Source: Acidimicrobiia bacterium (GTDB lineage: Bacteria > Actinomycetota > Acidimicrobiia > Spongiisociales > SHLN01). Taken from it: a DNA stretch of 43,932 bases. The position numbers and the translations under genes are program-made. Below are positions 1 through 28,274 of the stretch, one piece after another. Numbering within the stretch: the stretch's first letter is position 1; the number at the start of each line of letters is the position of its first letter. The notes beneath the pieces were generated by a model, which worked only from the letters and a program-made list of their open reading frames with translations, searched no databases and had not been told where the DNA came from. The stretch covers positions 1-43,932 of the forward strand of contig JBFKDW010000018.1 in assembly GCA_041619515.1 (NCBI GenBank). The letters run 5' to 3'.

Positions 1-126
1 ACGACGACACAACAGCCGCCGACGACCACCACGACGGCACCGACGTCGCCGAACACCCCCACGACGACACAACAGCCGCCGACGACCACCACGACGGCAC
101 CGACGTCGCCGAACACCCCCACGACG
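1..126 (+). repeat. Perfect 60-bp coding tandem repeat (at least 2 copies, truncated by the window edge)
   Basis: Bases 1-60 and 61-120 are identical, and 121-126 begin a third copy. Confidence 0.95.
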
Positions 127-494: not shown

Positions 495-513
495 GAACGA
501 CATAGGGGAACAC

Positions 514-1608: not shown

Positions 1609-1633
1609 AGACCACTCTGATGGCCTGCCGGGC

Positions 1634-2035: not shown

Positions 2036-2165
2036 CTGGACCCCAGCCGTTCGTGGGCGGTCATGAATGCCCGCGTTCAGGTCTCATGGGACGCTCAAGC
2101 TGATTGCATCGACCATGCAAGAACCCCAGAGCAGGGACTGTGCCCTATCGCAGATTGGAAACGAG

Positions 2166-2807: not shown

Positions 2808-3190
2808 GGCCGCATCCTAAGCGGTCTTCAGCCCTACCCACGACCAGCTGCAGTAGCCCAGCCGGACCCAGCGGGCGTCACGCTCAGCGTCCCCTTCTTC
2901 TCTGCTCAGCTTCGGTCCAAGCTCGATCGAATTGGCGGCGACGAATGAGCGATGGCGGCTCGCTGGACGAAATGACTGATGACTCGGCGATGGACGGTGA
3001 GACGGCCAGGGCGTAACTTCTCCGACAACGCGTAGCATGCGGGCAGGTTGGGGACGACGTGCCCGCAATAGGAGGGTGTCGTTCGGCGAAGCTCCGGCGA
3101 GAATCCGGTGGCTGCGACACCCGCCCGGGGCGTGACGGGCGGGCGCTCGGCGCACTACTGCAAGCAAGGCTGTCGTCCCTTTGCATTCCC

Positions 3191-5248: not shown

Positions 5249-5302
5249 GGCTGCTCCTCCAACGAGTTGAAGACGGATGCGGATCCGAAAGGATGTCCCA
5301 CA

Positions 5303-5334
5303 GTTATACACCTTCTAGTCGACTGGAATGTCAA
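5303..5334 (-). promoter_or_regulatory. MerR-type promoter of copB: TTGACA, 20-bp spacer with dyad operator, TATAAC
   Basis: The minus strand reads TTGACA ttccagtcgactagaaggtg TATAAC. The spacer holds the near-perfect palindrome TTCYAGTCGACTRGAA (5313-5328). Confidence 0.85.
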
Positions 5335-5420
5335 GCGATTCGCAGGGAGAGCCACCGGCAGCGTCCCCGGTAAAAGCGAAGATCGGCTCAGATCGTCTGA
5401 CCCACTCACCGCTGGAAGAA

Positions 5421-5882
5421 TCAGCTATGTGCGCCGGGCGCCTCGTGTAGATGCCTCGAACCGCCGAGACGCGTCGGCATCATCCCGGTCTCGGCAATCG
5501 TCTGACATCGATGGGGATCCGTGCACTCGGAGGGATCGAGTCGGCGGGCGCGCTTCGTCAAGGTGGCCAACTTCCCGCGCGTCTCCTGCAGCACGGCGAT
5601 GTGGTGGTCGATGTCCTCGAGATGGGATTCCAGCAGCCCCAGCACGTGATCACACGTCGACTCGCCCTCGTCACGCAACGACAGGATCGAGCTGATCTCG
5701 GCCAGGCTGAGACCGGTCGCCCGGGCGTCGCGGACGAACTTCAGTCGCTCGACGGCTGCTGCCCCATAATCGCGGTACCCGTTGGCGGCTCGCTCGGGAC
5801 GGGGAAGCACCTCGATTTCCTCGTAGTAGCGGATCGTCTTCGTGGTAACGCCCGCCTGCTGCGACAGCTCGCCGATCCTCAT
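5421..5882 (-). CDS. MerR-family heavy-metal-responsive transcriptional regulator
   Basis: MRIGEL...TIRYYE...NGYRDY HTH, a Cys at the start of the dimerisation helix (STCDH) and a C-terminal CTDPHRC. Confidence 0.92.
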   Translation of the reverse strand: MRIGELSQQAGVTTKTIRYYEEIEVLPRPERAANGYRDYGAAAVERLKFVRDARATGLSLAEISSILSLRDEGESTCDHVLGLLESHLEDIDHHIAVLQETRGKLATLTKRARRLDPSECTDPHRCQTIAETGMMPTRLGGSRHLHEAPGAHS

Positions 5883-5889
5883 CACCACG

Positions 5890-13355: not shown

Positions 13356-16091
13356 CTACCCGGTGTTGCGCAGCCCGGCGGCGATCCCGTTCACGGTCGA
13401 GAGCAGGGCACGGCGGAGCTTGTCGTCGCTGCCGCCGGCACGGGCCTTGGCGAGCAGCTCCACCTGGACAAAACTCATCGGGTCGATGTAGACGTCGCGC
13501 ACCGCCAGCGTGCGGGCGAGTGTGGGGTTGCGGTCCAGGAGGCTCTTCTCCCCCGTCACTGTCAGCGTCTCGTCGACGGTCAACCGGTACTCGGCGCGGA
13601 TGTCGTCGAACACATGCCGGTGGGCGGGATCGACCAGCCGCCTCACATACCGGGCCGCCACGGCCAGGTCGGTCTTGGTGAGGGTCATCTCGACGTTCGA
13701 TATGAACGTACGGAAGAATGCCCAGCGCTGATACATCTCTGCGATCAGTTCTCCGTAGCCGGCCCGGCGGGCTGCCGCCAAACCGCTGCCGACTCCGTAC
13801 CACCCGGGCACTACCTGGCGCGACTGCGTCCATCCGAACACCCACGGGATGGCCCGCAGCCCCTCCAGCCCGGAGCTGCTGCCGGGTCGGCGTGCCGGCC
13901 GGGAGCCGATGTTCATGGCTCCCAGCTCCTCGACGGGCGTCGATGACAAGAAATACGGGACCAGATCCGGGTCGTCGATGAGGGCCCGATAGGTGGCGAA
14001 CGCTTGATCGGATATGGCATCCATGGCTTCGAACCAGCGGTCGAGGGTTGCGGGGTCGGCCCGGGATTGGCGGTGCAGCAGCGACGCCTCGAGCACCGCA
14101 GCCAGGCCCACCTCGAGGTTGCGGTAGGCGAGCTCGGGAAGACCGTACTTGTCGGCGACCACTTCACCCTGCTCGGTCAGCTTGACGGTGGCATCGACGG
14201 TTCCGAATGCCTGGGCCATGATCGCGTCGCCGGTGGGGCCTCCGCCCCGGCCGACCGTTCCCCCCCGGCCGTGGAAGAACCGCAGCTTGACACCGTGGCG
14301 GGCGGCCACATCCCGGATGCCGCGGGTCGCCTGGTACAGCTCCCACTGGGAGGTGGTGATTCCCCCGTGCTTGTTCGAGTCCGAATACCCGAGCATCACC
14401 TCCTGCAGGTCGCCGCGCAGCTCGACGATACGCCGGTAGGCCGGCACGCTCAGCAGCCGGTCGACGCTGTCGGCTCCTCCCCGGATCTCGCCGATGGTCT
14501 CGAACAACGGAACGAACCCGATGCGGGCCACCCCCGCGTAGATGTCGATGAGACCGGCTTCCCGGGCGGCCACAGCTGCTGCCAGCACATCGTCGGCCGC
14601 CACCGTCATCGACAGGATGAAGCTCTCGATGGTGCCGGGGCCGTAGGTGTCGAGCGCCGAGCGGACGGCATGGAAGGCCCCCATCGTGGCCGCGGCATCG
14701 TCCACCAGCTCGACCATGGCAGACGACAGCGGGCGCCGGCTCTCCAGCTCGTCGCCGAGCAGATCGGCACGGGCCGACCGGTCCATGGCGCGGTAGGCAT
14801 CCCCGGACCCATCGATCCGTTCGTACAGCGACGCGATGACCTCATGGACGCGTCCGGCGTCCTCACGGATATCCATGACGGCGAGCCGAAACCCGAAGCA
14901 GGCCACCCGGCGCATCAACCGGGTCAACGATCCCGTAGCGATGAGCTCACCCCGGGACTCGAGGAGTGAGTCGTAGATCAGCCGCAGGTCGTCGAGCAGG
15001 TCATCACCGGTGAGATAGTCCACCCCGGGCACGTGCTGAGACCCGTCTTCGAAGCGCCGGCGGGTGTTGTGGAGCCGCTGATGGACGAACGCCAGTTTGA
15101 GGCGGTAGGACTCCCGGGCGTTCAGCTCGCCGAAGCGCGCGAACACCTTGGGGAGCGCCGCCCGATCGTCTGCCAGCGAGTCCTCCAGAGCGGACGTCGA
15201 CTCGACCAGGCGCCCCGACACGCTCAGCTCGGCGGCCAATTCCTCCACAGCCTTGATGAGATTCCGCAGCCCGTGCTCGTGCTGGATGGCCAGGACTTCG
15301 GCGGTGACCGCCGGGGTCACATTCGGATTGCCGTCGCGGTCACCACCAACCCAGGTCCCGAAGCGGATGGGAAAGCGATCCGGGCGAAGACGAACTCCCA
15401 AGCGCTCGAACTGCTCATCGACGGTATCCGAGAAGGGGCCGATTGTCTCCTCGAACAACTCGTCGAAGTAGTAGACGGCCGAACGAGCCTCATCTATCGG
15501 AGTTGGGCGATCATGTCGCAGCTCGTCGGTTTGCCACATCAGGTCGATGATCTCGCTGACGCGCCGGTCGATTCGGCGCCGCTCGCCGGGGGTGGCGCGG
15601 GGGTCTCCGCGGTCGGTCAACAGCTTGGAGATGTCGGCCACCTTGGTGAGCATGGACCGGCGCGCCGCCTCGGTGGGATGGGCGGTGAATACCGGGCGCA
15701 CCTCGAGCCGGTTGATCACGTCGCTGATCAGCTCGGGCGCCACCTGGGCCTGGAGTATTCGGTCGACGCTCTGTTCCAGCGGCTCATCGATGGGCTCGGC
15801 TCCCGAGGCCGGGTCGCTCGCCCGGTGGGTCTGCTCGGCCACGTTGGCCAGGAAGAAATAGGCGCTGAAGGCTCGCACCAGGTTGATCGTGGTGTCGAGA
15901 TCGAGCTGCCCGAGCACCGCCTCCAGCTCCGAAGCGTCCGCTCCCTCTTCGGACCGGAGGCGCTTGGTGATGGCCCTGACTTCCTCCACCAGAACAAGCA
16001 GTTCGGGGCCGACCTGACGGACGAGGGTCTCACCCAGGTTGGTGCCCAGCCGGCGGATGTCGGATCGCAGGGCGGTATCGCGCTCGCTCAT
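13356..16091 (-). CDS. ppc: Phosphoenolpyruvate carboxylase
   Basis: VFTAHPTE, WVGGDRDGNP, VPLFET, QEVMLGYSDSNK, FHGRGGTVGRGG, LRAIPWVFGW and C-terminal GLRNTG. Start set at ATG 16091. Confidence 0.97.
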   Translation of the reverse strand: MSERDTALRSDIRRLGTNLGETLVRQVGPELLVLVEEVRAITKRLRSEEGADASELEAVLGQLDLDTTINLVRAFSAYFFLANVAEQTHRASDPASGAEPIDEPLEQSVDRILQAQVAPELISDVINRLEVRPVFTAHPTEAARRSMLTKVADISKLLTDRGDPRATPGERRRIDRRVSEIIDLMWQTDELRHDRPTPIDEARSAVYYFDELFEETIGPFSDTVDEQFERLGVRLRPDRFPIRFGTWVGGDRDGNPNVTPAVTAEVLAIQHEHGLRNLIKAVEELAAELSVSGRLVESTSALEDSLADDRAALPKVFARFGELNARESYRLKLAFVHQRLHNTRRRFEDGSQHVPGVDYLTGDDLLDDLRLIYDSLLESRGELIATGSLTRLMRRVACFGFRLAVMDIREDAGRVHEVIASLYERIDGSGDAYRAMDRSARADLLGDELESRRPLSSAMVELVDDAAATMGAFHAVRSALDTYGPGTIESFILSMTVAADDVLAAAVAAREAGLIDIYAGVARIGFVPLFETIGEIRGGADSVDRLLSVPAYRRIVELRGDLQEVMLGYSDSNKHGGITTSQWELYQATRGIRDVAARHGVKLRFFHGRGGTVGRGGGPTGDAIMAQAFGTVDATVKLTEQGEVVADKYGLPELAYRNLEVGLAAVLEASLLHRQSRADPATLDRWFEAMDAISDQAFATYRALIDDPDLVPYFLSSTPVEELGAMNIGSRPARRPGSSSGLEGLRAIPWVFGWTQSRQVVPGWYGVGSGLAAARRAGYGELIAEMYQRWAFFRTFISNVEMTLTKTDLAVAARYVRRLVDPAHRHVFDDIRAEYRLTVDETLTVTGEKSLLDRNPTLARTLAVRDVYIDPMSFVQVELLAKARAGGSDDKLRRALLSTVNGIAAGLRNTG

Positions 16092-16146
16092 GGCGGGCAG
16101 CGTAGCCAACGGGCGCCGCCGACCAAGCGGCCGGCACGGCGGATCG

Positions 16147-16548
16147 CTACCTGGTCCCCAGCAGCGGCGTTTCGTCGAGCTCTGCGAGGAGGGCGTCCCG
16201 GGCTCTCGCCCAGGCCCCGTGCATCGCACACACGTTCACCGCCGGGCAAGGGGTGCCCCGCAGCACACACCGGTCGTCGCGGGTCGGGCCCTCCATCATC
16301 TCGATCAGCATGAGCAGGCTGATCGAGCTCACGTCCCCGGTGATGCGGTAGCCCCCCTGGGGCCCCGGGTCGGATTCCACCCAGCCGGCCTGCACGAGCG
16401 GCCGCATGACCTGAGGGAGATAGGCAACCGTGGTGCCGAGCTGCGCGGCCAGCGTCGCCCCCTTGGTCGGCCCTGCATCCGCGTGGTCCGCCAAGTCGAG
16501 GAGGGCCCGGAGAGCCAACTCTGTCTTTTTCAGCAGCTCCAGCCTCAT
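16147..16548 (-). CDS. Rrf2-family (NsrR/IscR-like) Fe-S transcriptional regulator
   Basis: wHTH with GPQGGY and a three-Cys motif CVLRGTPCPAVNVC followed by His; AGGTG upstream of the start. Confidence 0.92.
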   Translation of the reverse strand: MRLELLKKTELALRALLDLADHADAGPTKGATLAAQLGTTVAYLPQVMRPLVQAGWVESDPGPQGGYRITGDVSSISLLMLIEMMEGPTRDDRCVLRGTPCPAVNVCAMHGAWARARDALLAELDETPLLGTR

Positions 16549-16619
16549 GGCACCTGCTTCGCAGCCGGACAGAAGCCCGAAATCTCAAGTTCCATACTCC
16601 ATGACCTCGCAACTAATGA

Positions 16620-16639
16620 AAGGGGCCATTCGGCCCTAT
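16620..16639. promoter_or_regulatory. DosR/DevR-like box
   Basis: AAGGGGCCATTCGGCCCTAT keeps the GGGxC...GxCCC dyad of the mycobacterial DosR motif and lies in the divergent rrf2/oxidoreductase intergenic region. Confidence 0.5.
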
Positions 16640-16695
16640 CGGTTCGACGCCGCCGTTGGAGACTTGCCTAGAGGCGCCGAGGGATTGGTGCAGCT

Positions 16696-19600
16696 GTGGC
16701 AGATGTCAGCAGGCGGACCTTCTTGATGTCATCGGCGTTCGCGGCCGCCGGTGCCTACGTCACCCACATCGGAACGACCCTCCCGTTCCTCCAGGCCGCG
16801 CCCGGCATCGAGAATCCCCTGCTCGAGTATCCCGGCCGGGACTGGGAGTCGATCTACCGCGATCAATACGCCTACGACGACTCGTTCACCTTCGTGTGCG
16901 CACCAAACGACACCCACCAGTGCCGGCTGCGAGCCTTCGTGCGAAACGGCGTGGTCGTACGCATCGAGCAGAACTACGACGGCGCCAATTACGGGGACAG
17001 CAGCGGCAACAGCTCGACCGCGGCCTGGAATCCGCGGGGGTGCCTCAAGGGGTACACGCTGCATCGCCGGGTGTACGGGCCCTACCGCCTCAAGCATCCA
17101 ATGGTGCGAACCGGCTGGAAGGAATGGGCCGACGACGGATTCCCGTCCCTGTCGGACGATCCCTCCCTCCGCACCCGCTACCGGTTCGACAACCGGGGAG
17201 AAGACACCTTTTTGCGCCTGTCCTGGGACGAGATCGACGATTACCTCGCCCGCGGACTCGAAGCGATAGCCGAGACATACAGCGGCGAAGCCGGCCGGAG
17301 ACGCCTGATCGAGGCCGACGGATACCCCGAGGAGATGCTGGAGCACTGGGAGGAGTCGGGCGTTCGGGTCATGAAGTTCGGGTCCTCCCTGCCCGTGCAT
17401 GGGGTGGCCGGCAAGTTCGGGCTGTTCCGGTTTGCCAACATGCTTTCGCTGCTCGACGCGCACGTCAGGGGGGTTCCGCCCGACGAGGCCAGGGGAGCCC
17501 GGGATTGGTCGGAATACACATGGCGGGGCGACCAGGCACCCGGCTTCCCGTTCGTCCATGGTTTGCAGGCGGCCGAAGTGGATTTCAACGACCTGCGCAA
17601 CAGCAAGCTGCACGTGCAGGTCGGGAAGAACCTCGTGGAAAACAAGATGCCGGAGAGCCATTTCTTCCACGAGTTGATGGAACGAGGCGGCACCATCGTC
17701 TCCATCGTGCCCGAATACGGGCCGCAAGCCTCCAAATCCGACTACTGGATCCCGGTCCGGGCCGGCTTGTCCGACACCGCCCTCTTCCTCGGTGTGGCCG
17801 GGGAGCTGATGCGTCGCAACCTCATCGACGAGCCATTCGTGAAGCAGTTCACCGACCTGCCGCTGCTCATCCGGCTCGACACCCTCCAGCGAGTCAGGGC
17901 CGACGAGGTCTTCCCCGGCTATCAGCCCGCACTGTCCTCCGACGGCCCGAGCTTCGAGTTGCATGGGCTCACCCAGGAGCAATACGAGCTGCTCGGCGAC
18001 CGTGTCATCTTCGACGACTCGTCTCAGTCGCTCCGCGCCATCACCCGGGAAGATGTCGGATCCGTCCTGACCGAGCGCGGGATCGACCCCTCACTGACGT
18101 ATCGCGCACCGATCACCCTGGTCGACGGCACCACCGTCGAGGTCGCCACCGCCTACGTCATGTACCAGGAGCACCTCGCCGACTACGACCTCGCCACGGT
18201 GGCCGACATCACCAGCGCTCCACCCGACCTGATCACCCGGTTCGTGACCGATGTCGCCACCATCAAGCCGGCCTCCTTCCACGTGGGAGAGGGTGTCAAC
18301 CACTACTTCCACGCCACGCTCCACAACCGCGCCGTCTACCTGGTCGCCATGCTGACCGGCAACATCGGCCGGCCGGGGGCGGGCGTCAGCACCTGGGCCG
18401 GCAACTACAAGGGCGGCATCTTCCATGCCGCCCCGTGGCACGGGCCCGGTGTCGGCGGGTACGTGAACGAGGACCCGTTCAACCCGCTGCTGGATCCCGC
18501 CGCCCCGTACACGTTCGCGACGAACCGCCACACCATCCATGGCGAAGAGACCAGCTATTGGGGCAACGGGGATCATCCGCTCATCGTCGACACTCCGGCC
18601 GAGGGGCGCAAGCTGTTCACCGGTCGCACTCACCTCTCCAGTCCCACCAAAGTGATGTGGTACAACAACGCCAACCTCATCAACCAGGCCAAGTGGGCCT
18701 ACGAGCTCGTCAAGAACGTCAACCCCAAGGTCGACCTGATAGTCGACCAGCAGATCGAATGGACGGGATCGGCCGAGTTCGCCGACTTTGCCCTCCCCGT
18801 CAACAGCTGGCTGGAGTTCGAGACCCTCGAGATGACGGGCTCGGCTTCCAACCCGTTCCTACAGATCTGGCGGGGCGGGATCGACCCGCTCCACGAGACC
18901 CGCGACGACATCGCCGTCTTCGCCGGCGTGGCCCGCGCCCTCACCCGCCTCACCGGGGAGGAGCGGTTCGAGCAGTACTACCGCTTCGCCCTCGAGGGCC
19001 GGCCCGAGGTCTATCTCGACCGGGTGCTGTCGGCTGCGTTCACGACTTCCGACTACACCGTGGCCGACATCATGGACGGCAAGTACGGCGAACCGGGCGG
19101 GGCATTGATGCTCTACCGCACGTACCCTCGCATCACGTTCTTCGAGCAGATCGCAGACAGTCTCCCCTTCTACACGGACACCGGGCGCATGCACAGCTAT
19201 GTGGACATCCCGGAAGCGATCGAATACGGCGAGAACCTCATCGTCCATCGCGAGGCAGTCGAGGCAACCCCCTACCTCCCAAACGTCATCGTCTCCACCA
19301 GTCCCTACATCCGGCCGAACGACTACGGGATCGGCCCCGAAGAGATCGACGCCGACCTCCGTCAAGTCCGCAACCTGAAGATGGCGTGGCGCGACGTCAA
19401 GAACACCGTCAACCCGCTCAGCGACCAGGGTTTCCGGTTCCTCTGCCTGACCCCCAAGTCCCGCCACTCGGTCCACTCCTCGTGGGCCGTCACCGACTGG
19501 CATTGGATCTGGAATTCCAGCTTCAGCGACCCCTATCGGGAGGACACCCGGCTGCCTGGGGTCGGCGATGCCATCTTCCACATGAACCCCGACGACGCCA

Positions 19601-20160
19601 GGGAGCTCGGGCTCACCAACGGGGACTACATCTGGGTTGACGCCAACCCGGCGGACAGGCCCTATATCGGCTTCTCGGAGTCGGACGAGTTCGCCGAGGT
19701 AGCCCGACTCATGGCACGGGTCACCTACAACCCGGCCTACCCGCCGGGCGTGACCATGATCAAACACGCCTTCTACATGGCGAGCCCCCGTACCGTGATG
19801 GCCGCCAAGACCCGCCCCGACGGGCGGGCTCTTGCCGACACCGGCTATCAGGCGAGCTTCCGCCACGGCAGCCATCAGAGCATCACTCGCGGATGGGCCC
19901 CTCCCATGCACCAGACCGATTCGCTGTTTCACAAACGAGCAGGCGGGATGGGCTTCATCTTCGGCTTCGACGTCGACAATCACGCCATCAACACCTGCCC
20001 CAAGGAGACCCTCGTCAAGGTCACCAAGGCCGAAGACGGCGGCCTGGGCGGCCGGGGACCGTGGTTGGGATCGACAACCGGCACATCACCCGCCCAGGAA
20101 GACCGGACCATGCAGGCCTACTTGAGCGGTGCACTGACCGTGGTCCGAAACCGGGAGTGA
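16696..20160 (+). CDS. nxrA: Tat-exported molybdopterin oxidoreductase alpha subunit, periplasmic nitrite oxidoreductase (NxrA) / nitrate reductase clade
   Basis: Twin-arginine SRRTFL. FS0 motif CAPNDTHQC...PRGCLKG. RAFVRNGVV.RIEQNYD, HRRVYGPYRLK, YTWRGDQ (Mo-ligand Asp), ENKMPE and TPKSRHSVHS match recalled Nitrospira/anammox NxrA motifs. Catalytic direction is not determinable. Confidence 0.88.
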   Translation: MADVSRRTFLMSSAFAAAGAYVTHIGTTLPFLQAAPGIENPLLEYPGRDWESIYRDQYAYDDSFTFVCAPNDTHQCRLRAFVRNGVVVRIEQNYDGANYGDSSGNSSTAAWNPRGCLKGYTLHRRVYGPYRLKHPMVRTGWKEWADDGFPSLSDDPSLRTRYRFDNRGEDTFLRLSWDEIDDYLARGLEAIAETYSGEAGRRRLIEADGYPEEMLEHWEESGVRVMKFGSSLPVHGVAGKFGLFRFANMLSLLDAHVRGVPPDEARGARDWSEYTWRGDQAPGFPFVHGLQAAEVDFNDLRNSKLHVQVGKNLVENKMPESHFFHELMERGGTIVSIVPEYGPQASKSDYWIPVRAGLSDTALFLGVAGELMRRNLIDEPFVKQFTDLPLLIRLDTLQRVRADEVFPGYQPALSSDGPSFELHGLTQEQYELLGDRVIFDDSSQSLRAITREDVGSVLTERGIDPSLTYRAPITLVDGTTVEVATAYVMYQEHLADYDLATVADITSAPPDLITRFVTDVATIKPASFHVGEGVNHYFHATLHNRAVYLVAMLTGNIGRPGAGVSTWAGNYKGGIFHAAPWHGPGVGGYVNEDPFNPLLDPAAPYTFATNRHTIHGEETSYWGNGDHPLIVDTPAEGRKLFTGRTHLSSPTKVMWYNNANLINQAKWAYELVKNVNPKVDLIVDQQIEWTGSAEFADFALPVNSWLEFETLEMTGSASNPFLQIWRGGIDPLHETRDDIAVFAGVARALTRLTGEERFEQYYRFALEGRPEVYLDRVLSAAFTTSDYTVADIMDGKYGEPGGALMLYRTYPRITFFEQIADSLPFYTDTGRMHSYVDIPEAIEYGENLIVHREAVEATPYLPNVIVSTSPYIRPNDYGIGPEEIDADLRQVRNLKMAWRDVKNTVNPLSDQGFRFLCLTPKSRHSVHSSWAVTDWHWIWNSSFSDPYREDTRLPGVGDAIFHMNPDDARELGLTNGDYIWVDANPADRPYIGFSESDEFAEVARLMARVTYNPAYPPGVTMIKHAFYMASPRTVMAAKTRPDGRALADTGYQASFRHGSHQSITRGWAPPMHQTDSLFHKRAGGMGFIFGFDVDNHAINTCPKETLVKVTKAEDGGLGGRGPWLGSTTGTSPAQEDRTMQAYLSGALTVVRNRE

Positions 20161-20161
20161 C

Positions 20162-20452
20162 ATGGAGAGCGGATACCTGGACAAGCAGCTCGAGCCCGAT
20201 GATCCGTTCGCCTTCGTCGCGGTCCGCTACCCGGTGGAGTCACAGCGCGACCAGGACCTGGAGATGGCACGGTGTTTCATCGAGGAGTACGCCCTGATGG
20301 GCTGGCCCGGCTCCCACATCCGGTCATTGTTCACGTCTCCCCTCTATGCGGGGCCCCATGCCATCTACACCCGGTGGGGACCCGACGTGGTCGACGACCT
20401 GATCCGGGAGATCTTTCACATCGAGGAGAGCGGCGATGGCGCAGGTTCATAA
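20162..20452 (+). CDS. Small acidic hypothetical protein between the alpha and beta subunit genes
   Basis: ATG lies 1 nt after the nxrA stop, with GGGAG upstream; the 3' end overlaps the nxrB start. Confidence 0.78.
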   Translation: MESGYLDKQLEPDDPFAFVAVRYPVESQRDQDLEMARCFIEEYALMGWPGSHIRSLFTSPLYAGPHAIYTRWGPDVVDDLIREIFHIEESGDGAGS

Positions 20453-21668
20453 CTGGCAGCTGGGACGGGACATGCGCTACCGGTTCGAGACCGGACAACA
20501 GGAACGCCAGTTCGCGGCCGTCTTCAACATCAATCGGTGCATCGCCTGTCAGACCTGCACGATGGCGTGCAAGAGCACGTGGACGCACTCGCCCGGCCAG
20601 GAGCTGATGTGGTGGAACAACGTCGAGACGAAGCCATACGGCGGCTACCCCGACGACTGGGACGTCAAGACCCTGGCTTTGCTGGATCAGGCGAATCCGG
20701 GAGGCCAGGTGTGGGACGGCGAACCGGTGGAAGGCGTGCGGGCTCCGTATGGACGATTCGACGGCCAAACCGTCTTCGAGGCGGCCGACGGGCTCACCAA
20801 GGAAGCGGTCGGGTATCTCCCACACGATCGGGAGTGGAAGGCTCCCAACCGTTTCGAGGATCACGCCACCAAGTTCTCGGCTGCCGGTGCCAGCCTCCCC
20901 GCTCACGACGGCTGGTTCTTCTACCTGGCCCGGATCTGCAACCACTGCACGTACCCGGCCTGCCTGGCGGCCTGCCCGCGCAACGCCATCTACAAGCGGC
21001 CCGAGGACGGCATCGTGCTGGTCGACCAGGAGCGCTGCCGCGGGTATCGCAAGTGCGTAGAAGCATGCCCGTACAAGAAGACGATGTACCGTCCGACCAC
21101 TCGTACCACCGAGAAGTGCATCGGCTGCTACCCGCGGGTGGAGGGGGAAGACCCGTTGACCGAAGGCCTGCCGATGGAGCCGCGCTGCATGGCCGCCTGC
21201 GTCGGCAAGATTCGCATGCATGGCCTGGTCAAGGTCGAGGCCGACGGCACCTGGACCCGGGATCCAACCCATCCGCTCTATTACCTCGTCCACGAAGAGC
21301 AGGTGGCCCTTCCGCTCTATCCGCAGTTCGGGACCCAGCCCAACATCTACTACATCCCTCCGCGTTGGGTTCCCCGCGACTACCTGCGCCAGATGTTCGG
21401 ACCGGGGGTCGATGCGGCCATCGAGCGGTACACCCGGCCATCGCGCCGGCTTCTGGCACTGCTCCAGTTGTTCAGGGCCAGCCAGCGGATCATCTACTCG
21501 TTCGACGTCGAAGACGGACCCCGGGTTGGTGAAATAGCCGTGGGAGGCGAGGTCGTCGAGCTGTTCAACGACACTGCGGTCGGCTTCGACGAGGACGGCG
21601 GAGAGATCGTGCGCGTGCAGGTCGAAGAGCCGATCTTCGAGCGAGCCGGAAAACTGAATTCCATTTGA
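20436..21668 (+). CDS. nxrB: Fe-S beta subunit (NxrB/NarH family)
   Basis: Four Cys groups: CIACQTCTMAC, CNHCTYPACLAACP, CRGYRKCVEACP (3Fe-4S type) and CIGC...CMAAC. Also NWQLGR, WWNNVETKPYGGYP and PLYPQFGTQPN. Confidence 0.93.
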   Translation: MAQVHNWQLGRDMRYRFETGQQERQFAAVFNINRCIACQTCTMACKSTWTHSPGQELMWWNNVETKPYGGYPDDWDVKTLALLDQANPGGQVWDGEPVEGVRAPYGRFDGQTVFEAADGLTKEAVGYLPHDREWKAPNRFEDHATKFSAAGASLPAHDGWFFYLARICNHCTYPACLAACPRNAIYKRPEDGIVLVDQERCRGYRKCVEACPYKKTMYRPTTRTTEKCIGCYPRVEGEDPLTEGLPMEPRCMAACVGKIRMHGLVKVEADGTWTRDPTHPLYYLVHEEQVALPLYPQFGTQPNIYYIPPRWVPRDYLRQMFGPGVDAAIERYTRPSRRLLALLQLFRASQRIIYSFDVEDGPRVGEIAVGGEVVELFNDTAVGFDEDGGEIVRVQVEEPIFERAGKLNSI

Positions 21669-21679
21669 GGAGGCCACCG

Positions 21680-22432
21680 ATGACCACAGTGCTCGAGCGA
21701 GATGATTGGGTCGAAGCGGTGGCCCGCACGCTCGTGTACGACTTCCTGGTGCGGGGCTTCGCCTACCCGACCCGGACCGAATGGGAAGAAGGCGCCACCA
21801 CGATTGTGCCGGCGGTCGCCCGCCTCCGGACCAACGATCCGTTTCTGGATGGCAGGCTCAGGGAAGCCGTTGCGACCATCGCAGCCGGCAGGTTCGACGA
21901 CGTGAGGCAAGCTCACCTCGAGCTGTTTCCCCCCATTGAATCCCAGGACTGCCCGGCCTATGAGACCGCCTACCGGGGAGCCGAGGTGTTCCAGCAGGCG
22001 CACATCATGGCCGACGTGGCCGGGTTCTACCGGGCCCACGGCGTCCGCCCCGGTGGGACCCACCGGGAGCGGCCCGATCACATCACCACCGAGCTCACGT
22101 TCATGCAATATCTGAGCCGCAAGGAGGCATACGCCCTCGAACACCTGGGGCCGCAACAGGCAGAGGAATGCCGGGCCACCCAGGCCCTGTTCTTGCGGGA
22201 TCACCTCGGGTGCTGGGCTCCTGGACTGGGTGAGCGAATGGCGGCCGTCTCCACCCACCCGTTCTTCCGAGCCCTCGGGCTCCTGTTGGCAACGTGGCTG
22301 GAGCACGAGATGGACGGGTACGGCGTCACGCCGGCCGAGCTGACCGTGCAGCCGCTGCCGGTCCCGCCCGCCTCGGACTCGTGCGGGCTCGACGCCACCG
22401 ACCATCCGGCCGGAGGCGAGTGCTCATGTTGA
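21680..22432 (+). CDS. TorD/DmsD-family molybdoenzyme chaperone
   Basis: CPAYETAY, MADVAGFYRAHG, ERPDHITTEL and FLRDHLGCW motifs; GAGGAGG RBS before ATG 21680. Confidence 0.9.
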   Translation: MTTVLERDDWVEAVARTLVYDFLVRGFAYPTRTEWEEGATTIVPAVARLRTNDPFLDGRLREAVATIAAGRFDDVRQAHLELFPPIESQDCPAYETAYRGAEVFQQAHIMADVAGFYRAHGVRPGGTHRERPDHITTELTFMQYLSRKEAYALEHLGPQQAEECRATQALFLRDHLGCWAPGLGERMAAVSTHPFFRALGLLLATWLEHEMDGYGVTPAELTVQPLPVPPASDSCGLDATDHPAGGECSC

Positions 22433-23418
22433 CCCACCGATGGGGATCGGCCCGACGCATCGCCTTCCTCGCTCTCGTGCTGCTGGGGGCCGTCCTGCTG
22501 CGGGTCGCGGACGTCAACCCGGCAGTCGCTCAGTCCAGGTCGGTGACGGCGTGGCGAGTCGACCAAAGCCCCGGCGTCGATCCCAACGCTTCGGTTTGGG
22601 ATGAGATCAGGCCGACGACCGTCCCCATGACCGCACAGCAGGTGGCGGTCCCTACGGGAGGCGGGGCCGTCTCGAGCATCCGGGCGCGCGCCGCACATCA
22701 TGATGGCACGCTGTTTGTGAGCGTCGAGTGGACCGACAGCACCATGGACGACGGCTCGGGAGCCACCGAGGAGTTTGTCGACGCTGTGGCGATCGAATTT
22801 CCGGCCGAGCCGGGTTCGGCAGTGCCGGCCATCTGCATGGGTCAAGCCGACGGTGCCGTGAACATCTGGCAGTGGCGCGCCGACCGCCAGACCGGCTTGG
22901 ATCAACTGGGCAAGGGAGCCGACTACGTCGACCTGTACCCGAGCACGGACGAGCTCTTCTATCCGGCTCAGCAGGCCGGAAATGCGCTCGCCATACCGGG
23001 GGCGGATGCGATCGAGAACCTGGTTGCCAATGGCTTCGGCAGTCTCGAGCCGGCGGACGTGGGTGTCATCACGGGCCAAGCCACTTACGTCGATAACGAG
23101 TGGAGGGCCGTCTTTGCCCGGCCGTTCACCGCTCCCGACCAATTCCAGCCCGACTTCGAACCGGGCCTGGAGTTCGACGTTGCGTTCGCCGTGTGGGACG
23201 GTCACCACCTCGATCGGGATGGGCAGAAGTCGGTCTCCAGCTTCGTGAGGCTCGATCTGTCCGACCGGCCGCCGGCCCAGCCGGGCGCGCCGGGTGCCGG
23301 CGAGGGGTCGGGGGGCTGGGGGGTGACGCTCACAGTTCTCATCGTCGCCTTCGGCGTGTACGCAGTGATCGTGCTCCGTTCCCCGAGGCCGGAGCCGCCC
23401 GAGGAGCAAGCGGCGTGA
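22426..23418 (+). CDS. Heme b gamma subunit (ethylbenzene dehydrogenase EbdC / NxrC-like) with C-terminal membrane anchor
   Basis: Signal peptide; DAVAIEFP, ICMGQ (Met ligand), VNIWQWRAD and FAVWDG...RDGQKSVS (Lys ligand); Gly/Pro linker and a TM helix at the C-terminus. Confidence 0.87.
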   Translation: MLTHRWGSARRIAFLALVLLGAVLLRVADVNPAVAQSRSVTAWRVDQSPGVDPNASVWDEIRPTTVPMTAQQVAVPTGGGAVSSIRARAAHHDGTLFVSVEWTDSTMDDGSGATEEFVDAVAIEFPAEPGSAVPAICMGQADGAVNIWQWRADRQTGLDQLGKGADYVDLYPSTDELFYPAQQAGNALAIPGADAIENLVANGFGSLEPADVGVITGQATYVDNEWRAVFARPFTAPDQFQPDFEPGLEFDVAFAVWDGHHLDRDGQKSVSSFVRLDLSDRPPAQPGAPGAGEGSGGWGVTLTVLIVAFGVYAVIVLRSPRPEPPEEQAA

Positions 23419-24380
23419 CCACCCGTTCGATACCGGCGGCGGCGGGCACGACCGGCTTGTGGCTCCTCCGCACCGTCGCCGTCGCGGCCGCGGCCGAGCT
23501 GGTCGTGCTGCGAACGATGACGCGCACCGCCATCCACATCCCGGGGATTGCCCGGGTTGAGGGCCCCTACCGGGTAGTGGCTGAGACGGGCCGGTTCGCC
23601 TACTCCGCCGCCGTGCTGCTGGTCGCGGTGGCTCTGGGTTGGATGGCGTGGAAGGAATGGGAGAGGCGACGGCTGACCGTGAGCCTGGCAGCGGTGGTGT
23701 GGTTCCTGGCAGCCGCGGCCGCAGCCCGCCTCGGCCTCATCAGCGATTCTGTGCTGGATCTGTCGGTCATCGGGGGTGTGCTGCTGCTGGCCACCGCCGC
23801 AATCGGCAAGTATCGGGCGCGGGCGCTGCCGGTTCTGTTGTTCGCCATGTCGTTCGCCGCCGCCGGTCTGCACGGCGCCGGCCCAGCCGCCGGGCTGGGG
23901 AGCGGGGTGGTGCTCAGCGCCCCCGACGGCCTGCTGCCGCTCGCCGAGGCGCTCGCCATCGTGGCGTGTCTCGCCTCGCCCATGCTGGTTTCGGGCCGGC
24001 TGCGAAGGGCCCCGCTCGTGGCCGCAGCCGTGGTTGCGCTTGCGACGCTCCTCGCCCTCCTCGCCAGCCCGGCAACGGTCAAGATCCTGCTTCTCTGGAA
24101 TTTCGGACTGGCCGGATACTTCCCGGCCCTGGTGTACGCGGGGGCGTTCGGCACACTGGCGTTTACTGCCCTGACGTCCCGGATGCCGGATCCGTACCTC
24201 GCCGTCGGGCTGGCACTGCTGGTGCTGGGGGGCATCAGCCTGCACAGTTCGTATCAGAGTGGGCTGGTCGTGCTCGGACTGCTCGCCGTCGCACGTTCCG
24301 GTCCGGGTCCGGGCACCGCGTTCGTGCGACACCCGGCCCGCACCGCCGTCAGAGTCTCGCTGCCGGCCTCGGCCGGCTAG
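23415..24380 (+). CDS. Polytopic integral membrane protein of unknown function, last gene of the oxidoreductase operon
   Basis: GTGA overlap with the gamma subunit stop; about 9-10 hydrophobic segments. Confidence 0.8.
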   Translation: MTTRSIPAAAGTTGLWLLRTVAVAAAAELVVLRTMTRTAIHIPGIARVEGPYRVVAETGRFAYSAAVLLVAVALGWMAWKEWERRRLTVSLAAVVWFLAAAAAARLGLISDSVLDLSVIGGVLLLATAAIGKYRARALPVLLFAMSFAAAGLHGAGPAAGLGSGVVLSAPDGLLPLAEALAIVACLASPMLVSGRLRRAPLVAAAVVALATLLALLASPATVKILLLWNFGLAGYFPALVYAGAFGTLAFTALTSRMPDPYLAVGLALLVLGGISLHSSYQSGLVVLGLLAVARSGPGPGTAFVRHPARTAVRVSLPASAG

Positions 24381-26732: not shown

Positions 26733-27395
26733 CTAGGCAGCCACCCAGCCCTGCTCGTGTGCCATCTCGGCGAGAGCGGCGACGACCATCGGATCGAACT
26801 GGCTGCCGGAGCCCTGCTCGATGTTGGTGAGCGCTTCAGCTGAGGTCATCGGGAGGCGATAGGGACGCGGGCTCAACATGGCGTCGTACGCGTCTGCCAC
26901 CAGCAGGATCCGTGACAGCACCGGGATCGCGTCACCGCTGGCGCCCTGCGGGTAGCCCTTGCCGTCGATTCGCTCACAATGCTTGAGCACGGTCTCGGCG
27001 ACCTGCGGGTGCACCGAGGAGGCGATCATCTGGAACGCGTACTCCGGATGGTTGCGGACCCGCTGCCATTCGTCGTCGGTGAGCGGTCCCGGCTTCTCGA
27101 GAACCTCGTCGGGAACGCTGAGCTTGCCGATGTCGTGCAGGAGCCCGGCCAGTCGAAGGCGGGCGACCTGGACCGGAACCAGCTCGAGCCGAACCCCCAG
27201 TTGCGACACCAGCTCGGCTACCCGGAACGCATGCTCGGCGGCCCGGCGGTCCCTCTGTTCGAGGAGGTCCAACAGCATCGAGATGGCAGACGGATTGCGT
27301 GCCCCCCGATCATCGAACGTCGGCGTCGCCGCCAGGCGTGCCCGAACCCCATCAATCGACGGAACGGGATGTTCGAAATCGAAGACGTTGCTCAC
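26733..27395 (-). CDS. Stand-alone HD-GYP domain phosphodiesterase
   Basis: EHAFRV, LHDIGK, HCERIDGKGYP, VADAYDAM, RPYR and GSQFDP. Start is uncertain (GTG 27395); the longer ORF overlaps the ABC gene. Confidence 0.85.
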   Translation of the reverse strand: MSNVFDFEHPVPSIDGVRARLAATPTFDDRGARNPSAISMLLDLLEQRDRRAAEHAFRVAELVSQLGVRLELVPVQVARLRLAGLLHDIGKLSVPDEVLEKPGPLTDDEWQRVRNHPEYAFQMIASSVHPQVAETVLKHCERIDGKGYPQGASGDAIPVLSRILLVADAYDAMLSPRPYRLPMTSAEALTNIEQGSGSQFDPMVVAALAEMAHEQGWVAA

Positions 27396-27524
27396 GTCTG
27401 GGCTATCGGCAACAGGCCGGTTTTCTTGAGACGGAGGCCTGCAAACCAGCCAGACGCGAAAGGGTCTTGGCCGCGATAGCTTCAGGTCTGGAGCACAGAG
27501 ACACACATCGAGGAAGGCCTCCGT

Positions 27525-28274
27525 ATGACCGCAGTAGCCGGCCCCTCCACCCGCCTCGCCGCCCGGGTTGTGAATGCCGAGAAGACCTACGGAACGGGCG
27601 ATGCTGCGGTTCATGCGCTGGCCGGGCTGACCGTCGACTTCGAGCGGGGCCGGTTCACGGCCATCATGGGCCCGTCCGGGTCCGGAAAGTCGACGCTGCT
27701 GCACTGCGTGGCAGGCCTCGATGAGCTCACCCGCGGCTCGGTGTTCATCGGCGACATCGAGCTGGGCTCGCTCAATGACCGCGACCTCACCTTGCTGCGC
27801 CGTGAGAAGGTCGGGTTCATCTTCCAGGCGTTCAATCTGATTCCGACGCTCAGCGCCGCCGAGAACATCACCCTGCCGTTGGATATCGCAGGCAAAGACC
27901 CCGACCCGGACTGGTACCGGCAGGTGGTGGCAACGGTCGGGCTCGGGGATCGCCTGTCTCATCGTCCCAGTGAGTTGTCCGGCGGGCAGCAGCAGCGGGT
28001 GGCGGCGGCCAGAGCGCTGGTCTCCCGGCCGGAGATCATCTTTGCCGACGAGCCGTCCGGCAACCTCGATTCGACATCGGCCGCCGAGCTTCTCGGCTTC
28101 ATGAAACAAGCCGTCGAAGAGCTGGGCCAGACAATCGTCATGGTCACTCACGATCCGGCTGCGGCCAGCTACGCCGACCGCATCGTCTTTCTCGGGGACG
28201 GCCGGGTGGTGGGAGAACTGCTCGACCCAACACAGGAGACCGTTCTCGACAAGATGAAGCAGCTCGGGGGCTGA
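27525..28274 (+). CDS. ABC transporter ATP-binding protein (LolD/MacB type)
   Basis: GPSGSGKST, LSGGQQQRVA, IFADEPSGNLD and VTHD. Confidence 0.95.
   Translation: MTAVAGPSTRLAARVVNAEKTYGTGDAAVHALAGLTVDFERGRFTAIMGPSGSGKSTLLHCVAGLDELTRGSVFIGDIELGSLNDRDLTLLRREKVGFIFQAFNLIPTLSAAENITLPLDIAGKDPDPDWYRQVVATVGLGDRLSHRPSELSGGQQQRVAAARALVSRPEIIFADEPSGNLDSTSAAELLGFMKQAVEELGQTIVMVTHDPAAASYADRIVFLGDGRVVGELLDPTQETVLDKMKQLGG

What the first reader, a model, noticed from the sequence alone, without database searches (positions are those of the whole stretch)
16696..24380. Complete Nitrospira/anammox-type periplasmic NXR-like operon in a probable actinobacterium (Acidimicrobiia)
Seen: six genes coupled by overlaps or gaps of 11 bp or less (alpha, small ORF, beta, TorD-like chaperone, heme b gamma, membrane protein). 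The alpha subunit has a Tat signal, and the operon has no narI or narK. Established: actinobacterial respiratory nitrate reductase is normally cytoplasm-facing NarGHJI with NarK, whereas Tat-exported alpha subunits with CxxxDxxxC, HRRVYGPYRL and ENKMPE belong to the clade holding Nitrospira, Nitrospina and anammox NXR. Inference: this is an outward-facing nitrate/nitrite interconverting system in a monoderm, either an unrecognised nitrite oxidiser/mixotroph or a different architecture of nitrate respiration. Host taxonomy is inferred from flanking genes.
Basis: partly seen in the sequence, partly recalled or inferred. Interest (0 to 1): 0.88.

Follow-up and report, generated by a model that had tools for sequence, protein, structure and literature searches.

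The report
Exported NXR-type nitrate/nitrite operon, Acidimicrobiia
An uncultured marine Acidimicrobiia genome carries a six-gene operon for an exported molybdenum enzyme of the anammox nitrite-oxidoreductase type plus two unnamed conserved proteins; it likely lets the cell respire nitrate outside the membrane when oxygen is scarce, though nitrite oxidation is not excluded.

Summary
Window 16696-24380 is a tight six-gene operon: Tat-signal alpha, conserved 96-aa ORF, beta, TorD-like chaperone, haem-b gamma with a C-terminal anchor, and an 8-helix membrane protein.

The alpha subunit matches Kuenenia NxrA (PDB 7B04) over its full length at 1490.7 bits. PcrA scores 166.7, EbdA 124.2 and NarG 101.5. 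The FS0 C-x3-D-x3-C ligands, the Mo-Asp, the substrate Asn and the gamma Met/Lys haem ligands are all kept.

The host is an Acidimicrobiia genome (95.65% complete). No second NarG-like gene, NarK, RuBisCO, nirK, nirS, nrfA or sirohaem nitrite reductase was found in it.

The operon is not rare. 478 relatives occur in species-representative genomes, and 27 of 401 sampled genomes of the class have it. This scan met it before in other Acidimicrobiia.

Two things go beyond print. The 8-helix protein occurs only beside this enzyme, in the Actinomycetota/Chloroflexota branch. A DosR-like palindrome lies 73 bp upstream and is conserved in 23 of 37 related loci.

My reading is low-oxygen nitrate respiration outside the cell (about 0.5). 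Nitrite oxidation remains open (about 0.3). The direction is untested.

The parts
16619..16640 (.). DosR-like palindrome (core GGGCC-ATTC-GGCCC at 16623-16636), 73 bp upstream of the alpha start and 71-92 bp upstream of the divergent Rrf2 gene
   Evidence: the core pattern lies within 400 bp upstream of alpha in 23 of 37 loci of the Actinomycetota/Chloroflexota branch and in 0 of 19 loci of the Gram-negative branch; the background is 34 of 1759 other 400-bp windows of the same loci. For a stricter pattern the figures are 21 of 37 against 7 of 1759; it is the best-scoring site in the whole genome. The published DosR consensus was read in PMC2275270.
16147..16548 (-). Divergent Rrf2-family regulator (possible local regulator, present only in the closest relatives)
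   Evidence: Pfam Rrf2 at 3.9e-28. NCBIfam matches only the superfamily model, not NsrR or IscR. The same gene sits upstream in L003. Upstream neighbours differ in the other 11 loci examined.
16696..20160 (+). Alpha (catalytic Mo-bisMGD) subunit with a Tat signal, NxrA-like
   Evidence: Scores 1490.7 bits over its full length against Kuenenia NxrA 7b04_B. Matches Pfam Molybdopterin. C68/D72/C76/C116, N71 and D279 are invariant in 17 homologues.
20162..20452 (+). Conserved 96-aa cytoplasmic protein of unknown function, between alpha and beta
   Evidence: tblastn hit at the same position in 65 of 80 loci across phyla. The profile finds 171 proteins, all unnamed and without a Pfam family. The model is four helices at pLDDT 81.8. 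No Foldseek PDB match.
20436..21668 (+). Beta (Fe-S) subunit, NxrB-like
   Evidence: Scores 579.9 bits over its full length against 7b04_A. Matches Fer4_11.
21665..22432 (+). TorD/NarJ-like maturation chaperone
   Evidence: Pfam Nitrate_red_del at 8.9e-20. TIGR03482 at 5e-21, below its curated cut-off.
22426..23418 (+). Gamma subunit: Sec signal, EB_dh haem-b domain, C-terminal membrane helix
   Evidence: Pfam EB_dh at 7.5e-35. Scores 92.3 bits against 7b04_C. M138 and K268 align with the Met155/Lys305 haem ligands of Kuenenia NxrC and are invariant in 12 sequences. There is a hydrophobic tail around residues 300-320.
23415..24380 (+). 8-helix membrane protein of no known family, specific to this operon
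   Evidence: No Pfam or NCBIfam match. Present after gamma in 43 of 44 loci of the Actinomycetota/Chloroflexota branch and in 0 of 20 Gram-negative-branch loci. In the class sample it occurs in 28 of 401 genomes, 26 of them with the enzyme on the same contig. The model has pLDDT 88.1 and pTM 0.86. No clear fold relative was found.

Best explanation
The operon encodes an exported, membrane-tethered molybdenum enzyme of the anammox NXR lineage that this Acidimicrobiia cell likely uses as an outward-facing nitrate reductase when oxygen is low.

Shown:
- Alpha carries a Tat signal. Beta has none, so it would be co-exported with alpha (inferred).
- Gamma has its own Sec signal, a Met/Lys-type haem-b site and a C-terminal helix.
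- A dedicated 8-helix membrane protein is always encoded next to it.

Inferred chain of events:
1. A NarL/LuxR-type regulator binds the DosR-like box and switches the operon on under hypoxia or NO.
2. The TorD-like chaperone, and perhaps the 96-aa protein, hold alpha in the cytoplasm until the cofactors are in.
3. Outside the membrane, the 8-helix protein would oxidise menaquinol near the outer face and pass the electrons on. It would do this without haem of its own, as PsrC/NrfD/DmsC-type anchors do (recalled analogy).
4. The electrons would run through gamma's haem b and the Fe-S chain of beta and alpha to the Mo site, where nitrate becomes nitrite.
5. Because the site faces outward, no nitrate/nitrite transporter is needed, and nitrite is simply released.
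For: 1. Control site. A DosR-like palindrome is conserved upstream in 23 of 37 related loci, against 34 of 1759 background windows. It matches the core of the published mycobacterial hypoxia-regulator consensus. Induction by low oxygen fits an electron acceptor, not an oxygen-dependent oxidation.

2. No sign of a CBB autotroph. There is no RuBisCO in this genome. None of the 10 class genomes with a RuBisCO match of 400 bits or more carries the operon; one of those 10, G275, is unpublished. Only 5 of 27 operon-bearing genomes have any RuBisCO-like match, at 116-218 bits.

3. Link with nitrite reduction. NirK-like genes (230 bits or more) occur in 13 of 27 operon-bearing genomes against 35 of 374 others. 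In G080, G344 and G350 nirK lies about 10 kb from the operon. Kin are not independent.

4. This enzyme is the only NarG-like gene in the genome, which also has a nifJ-type pyruvate:ferredoxin oxidoreductase and a cbb3-like oxidase. That fits a facultative, low-oxygen lifestyle.

5. A membrane protein found only with the enzyme fits a quinol-coupling anchor. Its invariant H41-I-P-G loop is predicted to face outward, because the next loop, RRRLT, is positively charged.

6. Exported relatives with an EB_dh-type gamma work as nitrate reductases in haloarchaea. The Haloferax mediterranei narGH locus shows this layout.

7. Nitrate reducers are reported within the wider NXR clade (PMC10732223; passages read).
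Against: 1. Kitzinger et al. 2018 (PMC6050957; passages read) describe the Nitrospira/Nitrospina/anammox lineage as exclusively NXRs. This enzyme keeps every residue checked against Kuenenia NXR.

2. The Met/Lys haem is described as high-potential in Kuenenia NXR (PMC8387239). That suits electron flow from nitrite towards an oxidase at least as well as flow from menaquinol.

3. An aa3-type cytochrome c oxidase is present.

4. This genome has no nitrite-consuming enzyme that I could find, so nitrite would be a dead-end product.

5. The DosR-like box has only 12 of 20 consensus positions in this window. The regulator is unidentified. Genome-wide, sites scoring 13 or more are no more frequent than in a shuffled genome (22 against 23). 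The next-best sites do not precede recognisable hypoxia genes.

6. The 8-helix protein has one invariant histidine and no detectable likeness to known quinol-oxidising anchors.
Confidence: 0.5

Rival explanations
1. The enzyme works as a true nitrite oxidoreductase. Nitrite would be oxidised outside the membrane. Electrons would pass from gamma's high-potential haem b, via the anchored gamma and the 8-helix protein, to the aa3-type (or cbb3-like) oxidase. This would give a lithoheterotrophic or mixotrophic energy supplement in an organism that need not fix CO2.
For: The enzyme matches Kuenenia NxrA, NxrB and NxrC over their full lengths, with all checked catalytic, FS0 and haem ligands kept. 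The lineage is described as NXR-only in PMC6050957 (passages read). Terminal oxidases are present. No nitrite-reducing enzyme was found in this genome. Two 2-oxoacid:ferredoxin oxidoreductases leave a reversed-TCA type of CO2 fixation untested.
Against: A hypoxia-type control box is conserved upstream. There is no RuBisCO here, and none of the strong-RuBisCO genomes of the class carries the operon. No soluble or dedicated cytochrome c gene lies in or beside the operon in the 12 loci whose flanks were scanned. The operon co-occurs with nirK in half of the carriers. It is patchily distributed: the one other genome of the same genus lacks it. That looks like an accessory respiratory module.
Confidence: 0.3
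2. The enzyme is used in both directions, or for another purpose. It could act as a redox valve or for nitrite detoxification at oxic-anoxic interfaces. It could also act on another oxyanion such as chlorate or selenate, as other type II DMSO-reductase-family members do.
For: Kuenenia NXR is described as bidirectional (cited in PMC10732223; passages read). The family holds perchlorate, selenate and ethylbenzene enzymes: PcrA and EbdA are the next-best solved matches. A neighbouring Rrf2-type regulator in the closest relatives could sense NO or redox state.
Against: The substrate-side Asn and the Mo-ligand Asp match NXR/NAR. Similarity to PcrA and EbdA is nine to twelve times lower in bits than to NxrA. 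No chlorite dismutase or similar partner was looked for.
Confidence: 0.15
3. The operon does not belong to this organism, because the contig was mis-binned or is chimeric.
For: Two close relatives of the operon sit in bins labelled Gammaproteobacteria (L003) and Kiloniellaceae (L019). So binning errors, or transfers, do occur around this element.
Against: GC is even along the contig. Genome contamination is 0.2%. The operon lies on contigs of 1.2 to 3.0 Mb labelled Acidimicrobiia (L017, L044, L045). It occurs in 27 of 401 genomes of the class. The alpha tree groups it with Actinomycetota rows.
Confidence: 0.03

Closest known systems
Kuenenia stuttgartiensis NXR-ABC (PDB 7B04; Chicano et al. 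2021, PMC8387239, passages read)
   Same: All three subunits match over their full lengths (1490.7, 579.9 and 92.3 bits). Both have a Tat signal on alpha, the 3Cys/1Asp FS0 motif C-x3-D-x3-C, the Mo-ligand Asp, the substrate Asn, and the Met/Lys haem b in gamma.
   Different: Gamma here ends in a membrane helix. There is no NXR-T-type tubule protein or cytochrome c gene in the operon. An 8-helix membrane protein is added. The host has a single membrane and no anammoxosome. The physiological direction is unknown.
Periplasmic NXR of Nitrospira and Nitrospina (Lucker et al. 2010, 2013; not read here, known to me from citations in PMC6050957 and from recall)
   Same: Same enzyme lineage as reported. 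Tat-exported alpha, an Asp in the FS0 motif, and an outward-facing active site.
   Different: I could not obtain named sequences, so no tree placement relative to them was made. Those organisms are autotrophic nitrite oxidisers with two membranes. This host shows no CBB pathway and has one membrane.
Haloarchaeal exported nitrate reductase pNarGH (Haloferax mediterranei pHME322 locus)
   Same: Outward-facing enzyme in a cell without an outer membrane. It has an EB_dh-type gamma and a TorD-like chaperone, and it is used for nitrate respiration.
   Different: Only about 27% identity over two thirds of alpha. Its quinol link is a Rieske/cytochrome-b pair encoded upstream. Here that place is taken by an unrelated 8-helix protein.
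Actinobacterial NarGHJI with NarK (for example Rhodococcus plasmid NarG)
   Same: Same superfamily, same overall chemistry, and a NarJ/TorD-type chaperone.
   Different: Alpha is cytoplasmic and has no Tat signal. FS0 is of the His type. The anchor is the di-haem NarI, and a nitrate/nitrite transporter is needed. Alpha scores only 101.5 bits against E. coli NarG, and NarG is the outgroup in the trees.
Exported NXR of Candidatus Nitrotoga and of the Chloroflexota nitrite oxidisers Ca. Nitrocaldera and Ca. Nitrotheca (PMC6050957, PMC11009272, 10.1101/2025.07.31.663499; passages read)
   Same: Exported NXR with an nxrABC-plus-chaperone layout. It shows that an outward-facing NXR can serve nitrite oxidation outside the classic phyla, including Chloroflexota.
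   Different: Those enzymes are reported to form a sister clade (the Nitrotoga type), not the Nitrospira/Nitrospina/anammox clade. A separate paralogue, about 40% identical, seen in a few Acidimicrobiia genomes may be of that type (untested).

Membership tests
Type II DMSO reductase family (Mo-bisMGD alpha, Fe-S beta, haem-b gamma, TorD-like chaperone) | All four component types are present and match the family models | tested here: met
   Best NCBIfam models: TIGR03479 (alpha, 283.5 bits), TIGR03478 (beta, 266.7), TIGR03477 (gamma, 154.4) and TIGR03482 (chaperone, 75.6). All are below the curated subfamily cut-offs. Pfam Molybdopterin, Fer4_11, EB_dh and Nitrate_red_del are above their cut-offs.
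Nitrospira/Nitrospina/anammox-type exported NXR | Alpha is far closer to a proven NxrA than to NarG, PcrA or EbdA | tested here: met
   1490.7 bits against 7b04_B, compared with 166.7 (PcrA), 124.2 (EbdA) and 101.5 (NarG).
Nitrospira/Nitrospina/anammox-type exported NXR | Twin-arginine signal on alpha, none on beta, Sec signal on gamma | tested here: met
   SRRTFL at alpha residues 5-10; R6 and R7 are invariant in 17 homologues. Beta starts directly with the conserved core. Gamma has a hydrophobic N-terminus ending in AVAQ. The signals were read by eye; no predictor was run.
Nitrospira/Nitrospina/anammox-type exported NXR | FS0 cluster with 3Cys/1Asp ligation (C-x3-D-x3-C), Mo-ligand Asp and substrate Asn | tested here: met
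   C68, N71, D72, C76, C116 and D279 align with Kuenenia Cys67, Asn70, Asp71 and Asp275, and are invariant.
Nitrospira/Nitrospina/anammox-type exported NXR | Gamma with Met/Lys-ligated haem b | tested here: met
   M138 and K268 align with Met155 and Lys305 of Kuenenia NxrC. Both are invariant in 12 sequences.
Nitrospira/Nitrospina/anammox-type exported NXR | Branches inside the clade on a tree that includes named Nitrospira, Nitrospina and Brocadiales sequences | not testable with these tools
   No named sequences of these genera could be fetched. The trees hold only MAG relatives and four outgroups. Bit scores against Kuenenia NxrA are 1490.7 for the window, 1679.7 for Methylomirabilota and 1645.8 for a betaproteobacterial MAG.
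Nitrospira/Nitrospina/anammox-type exported NXR | Catalyses nitrite oxidation in vivo | not testable with these tools
   No RNA run holds the stretch. No culture exists.
Canonical respiratory nitrate reductase NarGHJI | Cytoplasm-facing alpha without a Tat signal, His-type FS0 motif, NarI di-haem anchor, NarK transporter | tested here: not met
   Alpha has a Tat motif and a Cys/Asp-type FS0. No operon product matches NarI. No NarK over the cut-off exists in the genome. NarG is the outgroup.
Chemolithoautotrophic nitrite oxidiser (organism level) | A CO2-fixation pathway alongside NXR | tested here: inconclusive
   No RuBisCO was found in a 95.65% complete genome. ATP-citrate lyase and the Wood-Ljungdahl genes were not searched. 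Two 2-oxoacid:ferredoxin oxidoreductases are present.
DosR/DevR-type hypoxia regulon | Palindromic box of the TTSGGGACTWWAGTCCCSAA type upstream, plus a DosR-like regulator with a GAF haem kinase | tested here: inconclusive
   The box core is conserved. The window's box has 12 of 20 consensus positions, and relatives up to 15 of 20, counted by eye. The genome has two NarL-family pairs and a GAF-HisKA_3 kinase cut by a contig end, none specifically DosRS. No wider regulon was seen.

The most novel reading that the evidence does not exclude
Acidimicrobiia, abundant in marine waters and sediments, include unrecognised nitrite oxidisers. An NXR on the outer face of a single-membrane cell would be wired to the terminal oxidase through the anchored gamma subunit and a new 8-helix subunit, with no need for periplasmic cytochrome c or for autotrophy.
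Probability: 0.28. Interest if true: 0.85.

Novelty: new variant of a known kind. Interest (0 to 1): 0.55.

Why it matters
Gene surveys count K00370/K00371 hits either as nitrate reduction or as nitrite oxidation. Two surveys that I read list these Acidimicrobiia genes under opposite labels, as 'membrane-bound nitrate reductase narGHI' and as 'nxrAB'.

About 7% of sampled genomes of this common marine and soil class carry the operon, so its true direction affects nitrogen budgets inferred from metagenomes. The operon also offers three testable things:
- a dedicated membrane subunit of unknown fold that must link an NXR-type enzyme to the respiratory chain of a single-membrane cell;
- a widely conserved 96-aa protein wedged between alpha and beta;
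- a conserved control site that predicts when the enzyme is made.

Tried and rejected
- **Named nitrifier sequences.** Two protein searches and one cluster look-up returned only MAG proteins. No fine placement against Nitrospira or Nitrospina was therefore possible.

- **Fold of the 8-helix protein.** Foldseek against the PDB gave nothing at E 0.001 or better; the best was E 0.37 at TM 0.19. The wide VIA search gave microbial rhodopsins at Z 8.3-7.3 with rmsd 5-6 A. By the tool's own note that is within the range of unrelated helical bundles. The protein-atlas search gave only unnamed clusters at 0.81-0.84.

- **Fold of the 96-aa protein.** No Foldseek PDB match; the best was E 1.2.

- **Expression.** No RNA holder is listed. 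The DNA is held in marine metagenome runs and in one soil run at a 0.70 share. No reads were laid.

- **Genome-wide regulon for the upstream box.** 22 sites score 13 or more, against 23 in a shuffled genome. The six next-best sites flank dnaX, a rhomboid, a PocR-like regulator, DUF4386, an FAD oxidoreductase beside a multihaem cytochrome, and a PD40 protein. No hypoxia set emerged.

- **Conserved neighbouring regulator.** Flanks differ among the 12 loci scanned.

- **C-terminal anchor of gamma as a single-membrane adaptation.** Rejected. It is present in 41 of 44 gammas of the Actinomycetota/Chloroflexota branch but also in 13 of 20 of the Gram-negative branch.

- **Rrf2 as NsrR.** Only the superfamily model matches.

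- **Literature.** Six searches found no paper that analyses this operon in Acidimicrobiia beyond KEGG-level listing. Supplementary tables of PMC12008989 and PMC11411797, which may list the carriers, were not opened. Spieck et al. 2020 was not read.

Full report
**Observation.** The window is the whole of contig C18 of a 3.10-Mb genome of 146 contigs, 95.65% complete and 0.2% contaminated. Between 16696 and 24380 six ORFs lie on the + strand with coding-type base composition.

The most likely starts are GTG 16696, ATG 20162, ATG 20436, TTG 21665 (or ATG 21680), ATG 22426 and GTG 23415. These give a 1-nt gap and overlaps of 17, 4, 7 and 4 nt.

A divergent Rrf2-family gene (16147-16548) and PEP carboxylase lie upstream. 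A convergent Na/Ca-exchanger gene abuts the last stop codon. GC is even along the contig at 0.63-0.70.

[quoted passage not shown] The 96-aa ORF and the last ORF match nothing.

Against solved structures, the scores are:

| Subunit | Best match | Bits | Next matches (bits) |
|---|---|---|---|
| Alpha | Kuenenia NxrA, residues 4-1148 | 1490.7 | PcrA 166.7, EbdA 124.2, NarG 101.5 |
| Beta | NxrB | 579.9 | - |
| Gamma | NxrC | 92.3 | - |

I read passages of the structure paper (PMC8387239) and mapped its residues onto this enzyme:
- FS0 ligands Cys67 and Asp71 correspond to C68 and D72, with C76 and C116 completing the cluster.
- The substrate Asn70 corresponds to N71.
- The Mo-ligand Asp275 corresponds to D279.
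- The NxrC haem ligands Met155 and Lys305 correspond to M138 and K268.

All of these are invariant in my alignments. Alpha begins with SRRTFL. Gamma has a Sec-type N-terminus and a hydrophobic C-terminal helix.

**Host.** Of the 120 best protein hits (63-90% identity), 19 carry organism names, and 15 of those are Acidimicrobiia or Acidimicrobiales.

In species-representative genomes, 478 stretches encode a relative. Of the best 80, 45 are labelled Actinomycetota. Three of those are contigs of 1.2, 1.9 and 3.0 Mb.

In a sample of 401 genomes of the window's class, 27 carry the enzyme at 61% identity or more. The carriers are concentrated in a few families. The only other genome of the same genus lacks it. 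The operon's flanks differ among the 12 loci scanned. So this is a self-contained accessory module of Acidimicrobiia, not a binning artefact.

**Family structure.** The order alpha, small ORF, beta, chaperone, gamma is kept across Actinomycetota, Chloroflexota, Pseudomonadota, Acidobacteriota, Methylomirabilota, Tectomicrobia and Elusimicrobia loci.

I built two alpha trees. The FastTree run used 65 alphas plus four outgroups. It left out four loci with frame breaks and all partial alphas under 1100 aa. The IQ-TREE quick run used 39 rows. Both split the family into a Gram-negative branch and an Actinomycetota/Chloroflexota branch, with SH-type support of 96-97.

Kuenenia NxrA scores somewhat higher against the Gram-negative branch (1679.7 and 1645.8 bits) than against the window (1490.7). 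I could not obtain named Nitrospira or Nitrospina sequences, so the fine position relative to proven nitrite oxidisers is open.

**The two unnamed proteins.** The 96-aa protein is found at the same place in 65 of 80 loci. A profile finds 171 proteins, all 'hypothetical' and without a Pfam family. It has no signal peptide, models as four helices at pLDDT 81.8 and has no structural match. A role in cytoplasmic maturation or export proofreading is a guess.

The last gene is more telling.
- It follows gamma in 43 of 44 loci of the Actinomycetota/Chloroflexota branch and in 0 of 20 of the other branch.
- In the class sample it occurs in 28 of 401 genomes. In 26 of them it shares a contig with the enzyme.
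- The two exceptions are a fragment with an in-frame stop (G009) and a 590-contig assembly (G031).
- The one carrier of the enzyme without it has its operon broken over contig ends (G206).
- An exhaustive profile search finds 545 cluster representatives at E 0.001 or better and 142 at 1e-30 or better, nearly all 300-340 aa.
- The model is confident (pLDDT 88.1, pTM 0.86) but has no clear fold relative.
- Invariant residues include E28, R33, R37, H41-I-P, R60, E178, W228 and Q281.
- The H41 loop is predicted to face outward, because the following loop is RRRLT.

The membrane helix on gamma is not special to this branch (41 of 44 against 13 of 20).

**Direction of the reaction.** Nothing in the sequence fixes it, so I looked for context.

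First, following a lead from earlier notes of this scan, I found a palindrome 73 bp upstream of alpha, with core GGGCC-ATTC-GGCCC.
- The core pattern lies within 400 bp upstream in 23 of 37 loci of the same branch and in 0 of 19 of the other branch.
- The background is 34 of 1759 windows. For a stricter pattern the figures are 21 of 37 against 7 of 1759.
- It is the best site in the genome.
- It resembles the mycobacterial DosR consensus read in PMC2275270.
- Against this: sites scoring 13 or more are no more frequent than in a shuffled genome, and no wider regulon emerged.
- The genome offers only generic NarL-family pairs and a truncated GAF kinase as candidate regulators.

Second, the genome has an aa3-type oxidase, a cbb3-like fused oxidase and a nifJ-type pyruvate:ferredoxin oxidoreductase. 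It has no RuBisCO, cytochrome bd, NarK, nirK, nirS, nrfA or sirohaem nitrite reductase.

Third, across the class, none of the 10 genomes with a strong RuBisCO match carries the operon (one of the 10 is unpublished). NirK-like genes are found in 13 of 27 carriers against 35 of 374 others. In three carriers nirK lies about 10 kb from the operon. These genomes are related to each other, so the contrast is indicative only.

**Reading.** Together these points favour an accessory, low-oxygen nitrate reductase that works outside the membrane and needs no transporter. The 8-helix protein would be its quinol link. This is the job that a Rieske/cytochrome-b pair does for the exported nitrate reductase of Haloferax, and that haem-free anchors do in other molybdoenzymes (recalled).

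The rival reading is nitrite oxidation feeding the oxidase. It keeps real weight for three reasons:
- the lineage is known for it (PMC6050957);
- the Met/Lys haem is of the high-potential type (PMC8387239);
- this genome has nothing else to do with nitrite.

**Known or new.** NXR-like operons of this clade in non-nitrifier MAGs are in print for Planctomycetota and Verrucomicrobiota (10.1101/2020.05.19.103440, PMC10732223). Exported NXR in Chloroflexota nitrite oxidisers is in print, but of the Nitrotoga type (PMC11009272, 10.1101/2025.07.31.663499).

For Acidimicrobiia I found only gene-table mentions: 'narGHI' in 14-17% of UBA5794 genomes (PMC12008989), 'nxrAB' in UBA5794 MAGs (PMC13335318), and a caution about K00370/K00371 (PMC11411797). 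All of these papers were read as passages only.

This scan has met the same operon in at least four other Acidimicrobiia genomes and in Chloroflexota.

The enzyme itself is a new member of a known kind. The dedicated membrane subunit, the conserved small protein and the conserved control site make the system a new variant worth a bench test.

Noticed in passing
window 3-5888: A likely copper-handling cluster: two cupredoxin-domain ORFs (3-494 and 514-1608), a DUF3105 protein (2166-2807), a P-type ATPase (3191-5311) and a MerR-family regulator (5421-5888).
   Followed up: no
L003 (whole locus) and L019: Records labelled Gammaproteobacteria and Kiloniellaceae carry the actinobacterial-branch operon, including the 8-helix gene. 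L003 is 91% identical in alpha to the window. The likeliest explanation is mis-binned contigs, or else recent transfer.
   Followed up: partly
G010:C70:10459-13917, G016:C1:48848-52318, G006:C52:922-4383, G367:C1:476062-479445, G031:C536: A second NXR/pNAR-like alpha, only 40-42% identical to the window's, occurs in some Acidimicrobiia genomes. In G010 and G016 it occurs alongside the main type. It may be the Nitrotoga or haloarchaeal type.
   Followed up: no
G080:C2:192815-193708, G350:C2:320249-321148, G344:C1:2872430-2873329: A copper nitrite reductase gene scoring above the curated cut-off lies about 10 kb from the operon in all three carriers of one family.
   Followed up: partly
L084:832-2769 (-) = G000:C8: A 645-aa fused protein resembles cbb3-type subunits I and II (166 bits, far below the cut-off). 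It could be a distant high-affinity oxidase or an NO-reductase-like enzyme.
   Followed up: partly
L097:576-1661 (-) = G000:C10, with a DosR-like site at C10:23715: A multihaem c-type cytochrome (c7/c3-like domains) is divergent from an FAD oxidoreductase. One of the better-scoring copies of the upstream box lies between them.
   Followed up: no
window 26733-28151 (-); L007:7612-9210 (-): An HD_5-domain protein lies 2.4 kb downstream of the operon. In L007 an HD_5 protein fused to a LuxR-type HTH lies directly upstream of the operon. This may be a signalling partner.
   Followed up: no
window 40821-42983 (-): A 720-aa protein that combines DUF4331 and a CHRD domain. It was not examined.
   Followed up: no
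window 13356-16229 (-) versus 16147-16548 (-): The longest PEP carboxylase ORF overlaps the Rrf2 ORF by about 80 nt. The Pfam match starts at residue 54, so the true PEPC start is probably further downstream.
   Followed up: no
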